A stretch of DNA of 15,829 nt from Waddliaceae bacterium. Lineage in GTDB: Bacteria > Chlamydiota > Chlamydiia > Chlamydiales > SLFE01. Below the pieces are notes generated by a model, which saw only the letters and a list, made by a program, of their open reading frames with translations, did no database searches and had not been told where the DNA came from. Location of the stretch: assembly GCA_963783885.1 (NCBI GenBank), contig CAWAPJ010000042.1, forward strand, positions 1 through 15,829, written 5' to 3'. Of the stretch, positions 8,342 through 9,631 are shown piece by piece. Numbering within the stretch: position 1 is the first letter of the stretch; each line of letters opens with the position of its first letter. The translations under genes and the position numbers were made by a program.

Positions 8342-8379
8342 TGATAAGAGCGCAGGATTTCATTCCTGCGCTTTTATCA
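8342..8379. terminator. Hairpin terminator between the convergent OB-fold gene and grxD
   Basis: 16-bp stem 8342-8357 / 8364-8379 (15 Watson-Crick + 1 G:T) with a 6-nt loop. The GC core is followed by TTTTAT on the + strand. Confidence 0.7.
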
Positions 8380-8683
8380 GCTTTTCCAATTCGCCGTTTT
8401 CGGCAAGTTCAATGACGATATCGCAACCCCCGATGAATTCTCCATTAATAAAGAGCTGGGGAATCGTGGGCCAGCCGGTGTAATCTTTGATTCCCTGTCT
8501 TAACCGCTCAGACTGAAGAACATCGTGAGCGACAAACTCAACGTCTAGGGTGCTGAGGATCGAAACCACGCGTCCCGAGAAGCCGCACTGCGGAAACAGT
8601 TTAGATCCTTTCATGAAAAGCACTATAGGATTAGATTTCACCTCATGCTCAATGAATTTCTGTATGTCTTGATTATCAGTCAT
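8360..8683 (-). CDS. grxD: Monothiol glutaredoxin Grx4 (CGFS type, 107 aa)
   Basis: VLFMKG...PQCGFS, WPTIPQLFINGEFIGGCDI. The start at 8683 overlaps the bolA stop (ATGA), with GAGAGGA upstream. Confidence 0.95.
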   Translation of the reverse strand: MTDNQDIQKFIEHEVKSNPIVLFMKGSKLFPQCGFSGRVVSILSTLDVEFVAHDVLQSERLRQGIKDYTGWPTIPQLFINGEFIGGCDIVIELAENGELEKLIKAQE

Positions 8684-8943
8684 AAATCCTCTCGTGATTT
8701 TTGTTTCCACTGTTCGGGGGTATACGTCTTTACTGAAAGCGCATGGAGAGCCCCTTTAAAGTGTTCGTTTAACGGCTTCATAACCATCATATGCTGCTTG
8801 ATTAGGGGTTTGTCGATAAATAAGGGGGAGATCACAATGGCCTCGAGATGCGTCTCATCATTCATAGGGTCCAAAATATGGATTTGAGAATCGGGAAGGG
8901 CTTCGGATAGCGTTTCTTTAATCTCAGTTACAATTGACATCAT
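8680..8943 (-). CDS. BolA/IbaG family protein (about 87 aa)
   Basis: HLEAIVISPLF...LIKQHMMV...LHALSVKTYTP. Adjacent to grxD; start is ATG 8943 or 8940. Confidence 0.92.
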   Translation of the reverse strand: MMSIVTEIKETLSEALPDSQIHILDPMNDETHLEAIVISPLFIDKPLIKQHMMVMKPLNEHFKGALHALSVKTYTPEQWKQKSREDL

Positions 8944-9631
8944 TTTCCATCCTCTGATACCACTCGCATACGGCAGGGTTTTCTTTGACATACCTGAATG
9001 CCGGAAGATTGCTGATACTTTTCAATATGCCGAAAACAGCCAAATCGGCCCCGTTCGGCCTTTGATGATTCAAATATTTGCCCCCTTCCAGGGCTTTTTC
9101 CCATTCAGACAGACAGTTTTTAAAGTGAAGGGCGGGTTTGGCAATGTTTTTTCTCTTTGCGCTTTTTTTTGCGACCATCATCATAAAGAAGGCTCCCGAG
9201 TACTTGATAGTCATGCGTTGGAAGGCATTGAATTTACCGACTTTAGTGATGTAATCGAACGCTTTGCACGATTCTCTCATATTCCTGTAGACAAGAGGGG
9301 GAAGAGATGAGACGAGAACGCTGTCCGACCAATTAAGCCATTGATCTTCTTTGGCTTTGGCCACAGGATCCGTTTCGAAAACGGGGCGCTCGGCATAAGC
9401 GGCGTCAATGTGGCGCATAATGGGGGTCGAATCATTGATCTGGCGGCCGTCTGTTTCTACGTAGATGGGCACCTTTCTGTAAGAGGAGGAAAATTGTATC
9501 TCCTTTTTGTTGATCGGGTGGACTTCAATAGCCTCATAGGGGATTTTTTTATAGGACAGGACAGCATCGACCTTTTGACAAAAAGGACAAACAGCATATT
9601 GAAATAACTTAGGTTTTTCAGTATTGTCCAT
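8924..9631 (-). CDS. Glutaredoxin/GST-fold protein, prostaglandin E synthase 2 (mPGES-2)-like (235 aa)
   Basis: LFQYAVCPFC, EVHPINKKEIQFSSSYRKVPI, QINDS, LVYRN...AFDYI...GKF...KYSGA and PNGADLAVFG. SD GGAGGT lies 7 nt before ATG 9631. Confidence 0.85.
   Translation of the reverse strand: MDNTEKPKLFQYAVCPFCQKVDAVLSYKKIPYEAIEVHPINKKEIQFSSSYRKVPIYVETDGRQINDSTPIMRHIDAAYAERPVFETDPVAKAKEDQWLNWSDSVLVSSLPPLVYRNMRESCKAFDYITKVGKFNAFQRMTIKYSGAFFMMMVAKKSAKRKNIAKPALHFKNCLSEWEKALEGGKYLNHQRPNGADLAVFGILKSISNLPAFRYVKENPAVCEWYQRMENDVNCN

What the first reader, a model, noticed from the sequence alone, without database searches (positions are those of the whole stretch)
8360..9631. mPGES-2-like enzyme in a tightly overlapping operon with BolA and CGFS glutaredoxin
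Seen: three overlapping genes (about 17-20 bp, then ATGA). The first follows eukaryotic prostaglandin E synthase 2 motif by motif (QY..CPFC, EV.P....EI.FS.YRKVPI, NDS, VYR......FDYI...G.F......KY.GA, P..ADLAV.G). It lacks the N-terminal targeting/membrane segment and appears to have a shorter linker after the Grx domain. Established: BolA-Grx4 pairs traffic glutathione-ligated [2Fe-2S] clusters. mPGES-2 is a Grx/GST-fold protein reported to bind heme with glutathione, and its physiological role is debated. Inference: the operon points to a role for the PTGES2 family in Fe-S/heme or glutathione redox handling, a possible undescribed three-component module. It also implies that this organism makes or imports glutathione.
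Basis: partly seen in the sequence, partly recalled or inferred. Interest (0 to 1): 0.75.

Follow-up and report, generated by a model that had tools for sequence, protein, structure and literature searches.

The report
Bacterial PTGES2-like GST with BolA-Grx4
A chlamydia-like bacterium carries a soluble relative of the animal enzyme prostaglandin E synthase 2, read out together with two well-known iron-sulfur helper genes, which gives a prostaglandin-free setting for testing what this enzyme family really does.

Summary
Three minus-strand genes overlap by 20 (or 17) nt and by ATGA: a 235-aa CPFC glutathione-transferase-fold protein, an IbaG-like BolA and a CGFS Grx4.

The first protein belongs to the mPGES-2/PTGES2 class, not GrxB. 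It matches PDB 1z9h at E 9e-39, against 1e-8 for the next GST, and the model has TM 0.86 to 1z9h. It sits in a bacterial, anchor-less clade (Chlamydiota, UBA10199, Omnitrophota, Bdellovibrionota). One well-supported branch separates that clade from the eukaryote-type sequences, so it is not a recent host gene.

The genome encodes GshF.

GST-BolA-Grx4 occurs only in one chlamydial family, where it persists in three different flanking contexts. One GST-BolA fusion protein exists. In UBA10199 a different BolA paralogue lies convergent to the GST. Elsewhere the GST stands alone, and the bolA-grxD pair is just as tightly joined to unrelated genes.

The GST holds this genome's only detected dithiol glutaredoxin-type site. 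My best reading is a Grx2-like GSH-dependent oxidoreductase co-expressed with BolA-Grx4. A dedicated three-part Fe-S/haem module is possible but not shown.

The parts
8924..9631 (-). mPGES-2/PTGES2-class Cys-GST, soluble bacterial form (235 aa from ATG 9631; the longest ORF reaches 9646). It has an N-terminal Grx/Trx-fold domain with C-P-F-C (Cys20/Cys23 in 240-aa numbering), the cis-Pro loop KVP and NDS, and a helical C-terminal domain containing the class-typical FDYI...KYSGA segment.
   Evidence: 1z9h E 8.9e-39; AF2 pLDDT 91.1; Foldseek 1z9h_A E 1.6e-14, TMq 0.86.
8680..8943 (-). BolA-family protein of the short, Grx4-linked (IbaG-like) type, 87 aa from ATG 8943. Its start overlaps the GST 3' end by 20 nt. 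It has no cysteine. Two His residues (His32 and His67 of the 87-aa form) are invariant in the chlamydial alignment.
   Evidence: PF01722 E 8.4e-14; A2: invariant D29, H32, F42, H67, A68, T73.
8360..8683 (-). Monothiol CGFS glutaredoxin Grx4/GrxD, 107 aa from ATG 8683. The start overlaps the BolA stop (ATGA).
   Evidence: (TIGR00365 138.9 bits > 117.1).
9655..9684 (-). Promoter-like site TTGACA-18-TATCCT upstream of the GST gene, lying inside the start of the divergent MscS/MscK-like gene. This is a consensus match only.
   Evidence: 10 of 12 matches; 2 sites found in the region against 3.1 expected from shuffles, so not significant by itself.
8350..8375 (.). Inverted repeat GCGCAGGA-6 nt-TCCTGCGC followed by TTTT on the + strand. 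It spans the Grx4 stop codon. It is a likely terminator of the convergent + strand OB-fold gene and possibly of the operon as well.
   Evidence: Read directly from the sequence. Not reported by the terminator scan.

Best explanation
The first gene encodes a soluble bacterial member of the mPGES-2/PTGES2 class of cysteine-type glutathione transferases. It has a glutaredoxin-like N-terminal domain with a CPFC dithiol site and an intact glutathione site (KVP cis-Pro loop, NDS), followed by the class-specific helical domain. This identity is near certain. The gene is transcribed and translationally coupled with an IbaG-like BolA and the CGFS glutaredoxin Grx4. In this lineage the three genes form one glutathione-dependent thiol/iron-homeostasis operon, in a cell that makes glutathione through GshF.

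The function I think most likely (about 45%) is that the protein serves as the cell's Grx2-like dithiol glutaredoxin. Cys20 would attack glutathionylated or disulfide substrates, glutathione would resolve the mixed disulfide, and the large helical domain would provide a pocket for bulky or hydrophobic ligands. Co-expression would then supply the reductase chemistry that the monothiol Grx4-BolA pair lacks. Shown: family membership, operon anatomy, GshF in the genome, and the lack of any other detected Grx-type site in this genome. Inferred: the catalytic activity, the substrates, and any contact with BolA or Grx4.
For: Identity. PDB 1z9h E 8.9e-39, against 8.8e-9 for the next GST and 0.004-0.007 for E. 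coli Grx2. GrxB models score 45 and 41 bits, far under their cut-offs of 133 and 187. The AF2 model (pLDDT 91.1) matches 1z9h_A best: E 1.6e-14, TMq 0.86, with the next hit at E 3.9e-9. CPFC, VP and NDS are invariant in 18 bacterial homologues.

Operon. Overlaps of 20/17 nt and 4 nt, with Shine-Dalgarno-like sequences before the internal starts. GST-BolA-Grx4 is kept in three different flanking contexts: MscK/BOF in the window and L011; abhydrolase-TMEM164 in L012; guaA in L013 and L021.

Glutathione. GshF NF002688 scores 718.9 bits against a cut-off of 425.

Only dithiol site. A six-frame Pfam Glutaredoxin search of the own genome finds 2 matches, Grx4 and this protein. Among 16 GshF-bearing relatives, extra small Grx-domain ORFs occur in 7 of 8 genomes without the GST but in only 2 of 8 with it. 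Of 13 such extra ORF regions fetched, 11 show CP[YF]C, one shows CGYC and one gave no ORF.
Against: No activity or interaction data exist. The genome is 88.9% complete, so a small Grx could lie in the missing part. The complementary pattern rests on few independent lineages: five of the six GST-holders without an extra Grx belong to one family. G027 and G032 have both the GST and a small Grx. No glutathione reductase model passed its cut-off; the best candidates are two Lpd, one SthA and one unassigned FAD oxidoreductase. A plain housekeeping oxidoreductase does not explain why BolA in particular lies next to the GST in two separate lineages, nor the GST-BolA fusion P0003. Mammalian mPGES-2 is reported to lack classical GST activity, and the usual Cys-GST assays were never run on it (Lallement 2014, PMC4138524, passages read).
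Confidence: 0.5

Rival explanations
1. Dedicated three-component module. The PTGES2-like protein binds BolA, or the BolA-Grx4 heterodimer, and takes part in handling glutathione-ligated iron cofactors. It could act as a GSH-haem or GSH-[2Fe-2S] acceptor, buffer or donor, in line with the GSH-haem binding reported for mammalian mPGES-2.
For: BolA lies next to the GST in two lineages, with different BolA paralogues and different orientations. In one chlamydial family it is co-directional and overlapping in 5 loci. In UBA10199 a canonical BolA, only 30-31% identical to the window's, is convergent and abutting in 7 loci. One natural GST-BolA fusion protein of 324 aa, P0003, exists. The trio is kept through three changes of flanking genes. 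The BolA keeps two invariant His and the Grx4 keeps CGFS. The genome makes haem (ferrochelatase) and Fe-S clusters (SufB/D). Human PTGES2 is listed as a known haem-binding inner-mitochondrial-membrane protein in a 2026 preprint (figure legend read). GSH-dependent haem binding is summarised in PMC4138524.
Against: 33 of 45 loci have no BolA or Grx4 in the flanks held, and Grx4 is adjacent in only 4 of 45. The four other chlamydial GST-holders keep the GST and bolA-grxD on different contigs or about 130 kb apart. The fusion is a singleton: a search with its C-terminal part found only itself among 28 candidates. In 7 of 16 other chlamydial loci the bolA-grxD pair is followed, with the same 3-4 nt spacing or overlap, by Vut_1 and tgt, which are unrelated to Fe-S trafficking. 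Tight coupling in these compact genomes is therefore weak evidence. The UBA10199 arrangement is convergent, not co-transcribed, and may represent a single ancestral event. CP(F/Y)C sites with proline are, as I recall, poor Fe-S ligands.
Confidence: 0.25
2. Incidental operon. The enzyme acts on small lipophilic electrophiles or lipid endoperoxides and hydroperoxides (oxylipin-like compounds), as proposed for plant mPGES-2. It merely shares a promoter with bolA-grxD in one lineage.
For: Neighbours are variable in most phyla. A fatty-acid desaturase is convergent to the GST in 3 loci (L039, L045, L046), of which L045 and L046 are near-identical. A eukaryote-type relative is fused to an epoxide hydrolase (P0217). 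The only chemistry measured for the family is the in-vitro PGH2 isomerase and PGH2-degrading activity of mPGES-2, and oxylipins are proposed as plant substrates (PMC4138524).
Against: Bacteria of these groups are not known to make prostaglandin-type endoperoxides (general knowledge, not tested). This reading does not explain the repeated BolA adjacency or the fusion. No lipid-metabolism neighbour is conserved across clades.
Confidence: 0.2
3. A gene recently captured from a eukaryotic host by a chlamydial symbiont.
For: The organism is a chlamydia-like bacterium: its closest record is titled Waddliaceae, 95% identity. The window also holds a HECT-like gene. The family is best known from eukaryotes.
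Against: The best hits are bacterial at 50-76% identity, whereas named eukaryotes reach 41-43%. In the IQ-TREE tree, 43 bacterial rows including the window lie on one side of a branch with SH-aLRT 99. All 54 eukaryote-type rows, 8 of them named eukaryotes, lie on the other side.
Confidence: 0.03

Closest known systems
[quoted passage not shown]
   Same: Same GST-class fold and the same motifs: CPFC, KVP, NDS, FDYI...KY.GA, ADLAV. E 8.9e-39, with 30% identity over the structural alignment and TMq 0.86.
   Different: No N-terminal membrane anchor. About 39 residues shorter between the Grx domain and the helical domain. It belongs to a separate bacterial clade. It occurs in an organism with no known prostaglandin pathway. 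PGH2 isomerase activity and haem binding were not tested.
E. coli glutaredoxin 2 (GrxB; PDB 1g7o, 4kx4)
   Same: Same architecture (Grx-like domain plus helical GST-type domain), a dithiol CP(Y/F)C site, and glutathione dependence. The proposed role as the cell's main dithiol glutaredoxin is modelled on it.
   Different: Not a member. GrxB models give 45.2 and 40.6 bits against cut-offs of 133 and 186.65. PDB E-values are 0.004-0.007 and cover the N-terminal domain only.
BolA-monothiol glutaredoxin pairs (E. coli IbaG/BolA-Grx4, yeast Fra2-Grx3/4, human BOLA-GLRX)
   Same: The second and third genes are an ordinary adjacent bolA-grxD pair. The same pair is found in 15 further chlamydial genomes that I fetched, and it is even fused in one of them. 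CGFS and two conserved BolA histidines are present.
   Different: A PTGES2-class GST is added upstream and translationally coupled. My literature searches returned no paper describing such a third partner.

Membership tests
mPGES-2 / PTGES2 class of Cys-GSTs | Best and specific sequence match to solved mPGES-2, well above other GST classes | tested here: met
   1z9h E 8.9e-39 (136.6 bits), against E 8.8e-9 for the next hit.
mPGES-2 / PTGES2 class of Cys-GSTs | CPFC active-site motif at the start of helix 1 (Table 2 of PMC4138524 gives CPFC for the class) | tested here: met
   C20-P-F-C23. Invariant in 18 bacterial homologues. Class motif read.
mPGES-2 / PTGES2 class of Cys-GSTs | GST fold with the class-specific extra segment of about 40 residues between helices 4 and 5 | tested here: met
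   Residues 95-236 align without large gaps to 1z9h residues 139-282, including VYR...FDYI..GKF...KY.GA. The model has helices at 94-119, 123-135 and 141-165 and TMq 0.86 to 1z9h_A. The segment's description is from PMC4138524.
mPGES-2 / PTGES2 class of Cys-GSTs | N-terminal hydrophobic membrane anchor | tested here: not met
   The protein begins about 12 residues before strand 1. Eukaryote-type relatives have 80-130 extra residues. I treat this as a feature of the eukaryotic branch, not of the fold class.
mPGES-2 / PTGES2 class of Cys-GSTs | Groups with PTGES2 sequences in a tree rather than with other GSTs | tested here: inconclusive
   It falls in a bacterial clade one branch away (SH-aLRT 99) from the eukaryote-type sequences. 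No other GST class was included as an outgroup, so the tree shows the split within the family, not the family's boundary. The boundary rests on the E-value gaps.
mPGES-2 / PTGES2 class of Cys-GSTs | PGH2 to PGE2 isomerase activity and/or GSH-dependent haem binding | not testable with these tools
   This needs biochemistry. The haem-contact residues could not be read: the primary paper is not held and another paper had no passage on them.
GrxB (glutaredoxin 2) family | Score above the curated cut-off of the GrxB equivalog models | tested here: not met
   NF007702 45.2 bits (cut-off 133); TIGR02182 40.6 bits (cut-off 186.65).
Grx4/GrxD monothiol glutaredoxin | TIGR00365 above cut-off and a CGFS active site | tested here: met
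   138.9 bits against 117.1. The sequence reads ...FPQCGFSGR....
BolA family (Grx-partner, histidine type) | Pfam BolA above cut-off; conserved C-terminal His in the ..HAL.. motif and a second His in the loop (their role as cluster ligands is recalled, not tested) | tested here: met
   PF01722 52.1 bits against 25.7. H32 and H67 are invariant in 19 chlamydial BolA sequences. The equivalog model for E. coli BolA is not reached: 33.8 bits against 137.

The most novel reading that the evidence does not exclude
The PTGES2/mPGES-2 family may have begun as a soluble glutathione-dependent partner of BolA (and through it of Grx4) in handling iron cofactors, either haem or glutathione-ligated [2Fe-2S]. 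The chlamydial operon, the GST-BolA fusion and the separate BolA adjacency in UBA10199 would be traces of that role. Eukaryotic PTGES2, an inner-mitochondrial-membrane haem-binding protein whose knockout does not change PGE2, would have inherited it. Prostaglandin isomerisation would then be a side activity.
Probability: 0.17. Interest if true: 0.75.

Novelty: new variant of a known kind. Interest (0 to 1): 0.45.

Why it matters
The physiological role of PTGES2 is unsettled. Reviews note that its knockout leaves PGE2 unchanged, that it binds haem with glutathione, and that plants have it without having prostaglandins (PMC4138524; abstract of PMC5579259). A sizeable bacterial clade of the same class exists, and the GST review I read does not mention it: that review lists only animals, protists, algae and plants. 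This clade offers simple, prostaglandin-free systems for finding the ancestral activity. The repeated placement beside BolA gives one concrete and cheap hypothesis to test, namely a link to glutathione-dependent iron-cofactor or thiol homeostasis. For chlamydial biology, the result points to a lineage that makes glutathione through GshF and may use this protein in place of a classical dithiol glutaredoxin.

Tried and rejected
1. Complex prediction of GST (alignment A1) with BolA (alignment A2) gave no verdict: score 0.00 against a mark of 0.32, and the controls were not run. I use it neither for nor against binding.

2. I looked for the DNA behind the fusion protein P0003 in metagenome contigs. 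Only two unrelated weak loci came back, so the fusion junction could not be inspected. Its protein sequence reads through from ...WYQRV into the BolA domain.

3. A search for further GST-BolA fusions, using P0003 residues 200-324, found only P0003 among 28 candidates of 178-567 aa. Longer proteins were not searched.

4. A mixed alignment meant for folding the fusion (A3) placed the BolA rows wrongly (11-23% identity), so no fold was run.

5. Phyletic co-occurrence looked striking at first. In 61 chlamydial genomes the GST is in 9, and these have BolA in 9/9, Grx4 in 8/9 and GshF in 8/9. The 52 others have them in 11, 12 and 8 genomes respectively. In 101 Omnitrophota-phylum genomes the GST is in 8, all with BolA, against 21 of 93 without the GST. 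All 5 other GST-holders checked have BolA. I rejected this as specific evidence, because 15 of the 16 GshF-bearing chlamydiae have BolA anyway. All three proteins simply need glutathione, and related genomes are not independent.

6. GrxB identity is rejected, as is recent host-to-chlamydia transfer.

7. Haem-pocket residues could not be checked: Takusagawa 2013 is not held and PMC10618563 has no passage on them.

8. No earlier notes of this scan bear on this place or sequence.
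Full report
ANATOMY. On the minus strand of the window lie three consecutive genes.
- The first is a GST-like ORF, 8924..9646 (240 aa). Its likely start is the ATG at 9631 (235 aa). That ATG has GGAGG 8 nt upstream and coincides with the start of close homologues.
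- The second is a BolA ORF, 8680..8991. Homologues begin at the double ATG at 8943/8940, which is preceded by GAGGA. This start overlaps the GST stop (8924-8926) by 20 or 17 nt.
- The third is a CGFS glutaredoxin. Its ATG at 8683 shares ATGA with the BolA stop.
- A promoter-like hexamer pair lies at 9684-9655, but such matches are no more frequent here than in shuffled sequence.
- An 8-bp GC-rich inverted repeat at 8350-8371 spans the Grx4 stop. The terminator scan did not report it.

IDENTITY OF THE THREE PROTEINS.
- Pfam sees GST_N_3, Glutaredoxin and GST_C domains in the first protein, BolA in the second and Glutaredoxin in the third.
- NCBIfam places the third above the Grx4 cut-off (138.9 against 117.1 bits). 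It leaves the first far below both GrxB models (45.2 against 133; 40.6 against 186.65).
- Against all PDB sequences the first protein matches mPGES-2 (1z9h/2pbj) at E 8.9e-39. The next GST is at 8.8e-9 and E. coli Grx2 at 0.004-0.007.
- An AlphaFold2 model built on 18 homologues (pLDDT 91.1, pTM 0.89) finds 1z9h_A first in the PDB (E 1.6e-14, TMq 0.86). Tau-class GSTs follow at about 4e-9 and TM 0.5-0.6.
- Compared with the macaque enzyme, the protein lacks the N-terminal anchor. It also lacks about 39 residues after the Grx domain. A review describes an insertion in this region as specific to vertebrates (PMC4138524, passages read).

DISTRIBUTION AND PHYLOGENY.
- The word-indexed search returned 211 homologues. 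The best 120 are 49-76% identical and 223-324 aa long, and those that carry names are bacterial: Chlamydiia, 'Deltaproteobacteria', Bdellovibrionota, Omnitrophica.
- The exhaustive search over 1.84 billion cluster representatives found 116 clusters at E<=1e-30. Most are 290-400 aa with the match starting near residue 100.
- Thirty of these were looked up by exact sequence. Eight are named eukaryotes: Riccia, Acanthaster, Paulinella, Rhodosorus, Compsopogon, Vitrella, Percolomonas and Pleurodeles. One short form is labelled 'prostaglandin E synthase 2 [Halothiobacillus sp.]' by NCBI. Database pipelines therefore already give bacterial members this name.
- A FastTree of 164 rows showed a split between a 29-row short-form clade holding the window and the rest. 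This tree used every A1 member, P0003 and every representative of at least 215 aa.
- A second tree used IQ-TREE (LG+C20 PMSF, quick search) on 98 rows. The rows were 41 of 43 genome loci (L047 left out as truncated, L052 as broken), L008, the window, Halothiobacillus, and 54 long forms picked by hand across the first tree. Forty-three bacterial rows fall on one side of a branch with SH-aLRT 99. All 54 eukaryote-type rows fall on the other side, together with one Sericytochromatia MAG (L050).
- No outgroup was used, so the root, and with it the direction of any ancient transfer, remains open. What is excluded is a recent capture from a host.
- Within the bacterial clade the window groups with four other chlamydial sequences (SH-aLRT 98). 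It groups apart from the other Chlamydiota sequences (L008, L029, L037, and L053, which is the chlamydial relative's locus L009), which implies exchange among bacteria.

NEIGHBOURHOODS. I compared 45 non-redundant loci: the window, L008 and L011-L053. I used tblastn with two kinds of BolA query and with Grx4, and I ran a Pfam scan of 112 flanking ORFs.
- GST-BolA-Grx4 on one strand occurs in the window, L011, L013 and L021. In L012 the contig ends inside BolA. All five belong to one chlamydial family. The flanks differ: MscK-like and OB-fold genes (window, L011), abhydrolase-TMEM164 (L012), and guaA (L013, L021). The trio has therefore survived rearrangements around it.
- In UBA10199-type genomes a canonical BolA, only 30-31% identical to the window's, lies convergent to the GST and abuts or overlaps its 3' end in 7 loci (L014, L016-L019, L041, L048), between a SpoU methylase block and speA.
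- The other 33 loci show neither BolA nor Grx4 in the flanks held. Two of them have almost no downstream sequence (L015, L047). Their neighbours are varied.
- One protein, P0003 (324 aa, one sequence on one contig), is an in-frame GST-BolA fusion. A search with its C-terminal part found no second example.

THE bolA-grxD PAIR ELSEWHERE. Family searches in 61 related genomes found BolA in 20 and Grx4 above cut-off in 20. I fetched the pair from 15 further genomes, plus one locus with Grx4 alone.
- BolA is always directly upstream of Grx4. In one genome the two are fused into a single 198-aa ORF.
- In 7 of these 16 loci the pair is followed at once by a Vut_1 (YhhQ-type) transporter and tgt, sometimes with a 4-nt overlap. 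In 3 it is preceded by a 4HBT thioesterase.
- Tight coupling to bolA-grxD is thus not in itself a sign of shared function in these compact genomes.
- The four chlamydial GST-holders outside the window's family keep the GST and the pair apart.

GLUTATHIONE AND PHYLETIC PATTERN.
- The genome encodes a bifunctional GshF: 819 aa, NF002688 at 718.9 bits against a cut-off of 425. No separate GshB ATP-grasp domain was found.
- None of the glutathione-reductase models seen (TIGR01421, TIGR01424, NF004776) reached its cut-off. The four best flavoproteins are two Lpd, one SthA and one unassigned.
- Ferrochelatase and SufB/D are present.
- GST-holders nearly always have BolA, Grx4 and GshF. Counts are given under Tried and rejected. 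However, 15 of the 16 GshF-bearing chlamydiae have BolA regardless. The pattern shows only that the GST belongs to the glutathione-dependent gene set.

THE ONLY DITHIOL SITE.
- A six-frame search of the window's genome with Pfam Glutaredoxin gives two matches, Grx4 and the GST itself. The genome is 88.9% complete.
- Across the 16 GshF-bearing relatives, additional small Grx-domain ORFs are found in 7 of the 8 genomes that lack the GST. They are found in only 2 of the 8 that have it (G027, G032).
- I fetched 13 regions holding such extra ORFs. Eight were from the GshF-bearing genomes without the GST, three from GST-holders and two from genomes without GshF. Eleven carry CPYC or CPFC, one carries CGYC and one window gave no ORF.
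- This partly complementary pattern suggests that the PTGES2-like protein stands in for a classical dithiol glutaredoxin in the window's lineage. The number of independent lineages is small.

MECHANISM. I commit to a Grx2-like role. This would be a glutathione-dependent dithiol oxidoreductase or deglutathionylase using Cys20 of CPFC. It would be expressed from one mRNA with BolA-Grx4 so that thiol-redox and iron-sulfur housekeeping rise and fall together. I put this at about 45-50%.
- The dedicated-module reading, in which the GST binds BolA or BolA-Grx4 and handles GSH-ligated haem or [2Fe-2S], gets about 25%. Its strongest support is that BolA specifically lies beside the GST in two lineages with different paralogues, plus the one fusion.
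- An unrelated small-molecule or lipid-peroxide role with an incidental operon gets about 20%.
- The single complex prediction gave no verdict and is not used either way.

LITERATURE.
- The GST review PMC4138524 (passages read) lists the mPGES-2 class for animals, protists, algae and land plants. It says the class is absent from cyanobacteria and fungi, and it calls the class's role unclear outside animals.
- Full-text searches for PTGES2 together with BolA and glutaredoxin, BOLA1, GLRX5 or iron-sulfur found no paper linking them; I judged this from the listings only. The same holds for BolA plus monothiol glutaredoxin plus GST neighbourhoods and for PTGES2 plus horizontal transfer.
- A 2026 preprint names PTGES2 as a known haem-binding inner-membrane mitochondrial protein (figure legend read).
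- The ligand roles of the BolA histidines, and the statement that proline-containing CPxC sites bind clusters poorly, are recalled and come from no call.

VERDICT. The PTGES2-class identity and the operon are real, and glutathione synthesis is encoded. The proposed three-component module remains a lineage-restricted, plausible but unproven idea. I classify this as a new variant of known kinds: a bacterial, anchor-less PTGES2-type GST appended to a standard bolA-grxD pair. It is of moderate interest as a handle on the unsettled function of PTGES2.

Noticed in passing
window 11930-13783 (+): A 617-aa ORF whose C-terminus matches the Pfam HECT domain (E 1.6e-7, 31.7 bits against a cut-off of 23.9), with no NCBIfam match. 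It is a eukaryote-like ubiquitin-ligase candidate in a chlamydia-like genome.
   Followed up: no
L096:2473-3069 (+) (G011:C13): BolA and Grx4 are fused into one 198-aa ORF in another chlamydial genome. Pfam finds both domains.
   Followed up: partly
L095, L097, L099, L101, L105, L106, L108: In 7 chlamydial genomes bolA-grxD is followed directly by a Vut_1 (YhhQ-type) transporter and, in six of them (all but L105, where the flank held ends), by tgt (queuine tRNA-ribosyltransferase), sometimes with a 4-nt overlap. This recurrent block is unexplained.
   Followed up: partly
protein P0217 (815 aa, eukaryote-type clade): A PTGES2-like domain fused to an epoxide hydrolase (EHN plus alpha/beta hydrolase). 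This hints at lipid-epoxide chemistry in some eukaryotic members.
   Followed up: no
L050:2980-3675 (+) (Sericytochromatia MAG): This bacterial-MAG copy groups among the eukaryote-type sequences, not with the bacterial clade. It could be a separate transfer or a binning contaminant.
   Followed up: no
L100 (G032:C5), about 2402-3333 (-): Here the short Grx-linked BolA, Grx4 and a second, canonical BolA lie in a row. Several genomes, including the window's (G000:C7:861-1082), hold both BolA types.
   Followed up: partly
window 7501-8334 (+): A tandem OB-fold (BOF/YgiW-type) protein with a signal-like N-terminus and a Q/N/G-rich linker, convergent on the operon.
   Followed up: no
window 170-1009 (+) and 13833-15038 (-): An IS982-family transposase (153 bits against a cut-off of 130) and an AAA_14/DUF4143 ATPase lie near the two ends of the window. 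A similar AAA_14/DUF4143 gene lies beside the GST in L024.
   Followed up: no
L054-L089 (Shewanella, Marinobacterium and others): The weak hits are about 120-aa membrane-anchored single-domain glutaredoxin-like proteins with YQY.ACPFC (8 of them read). They belong to a different family that shares only the N-terminal motif.
   Followed up: partly
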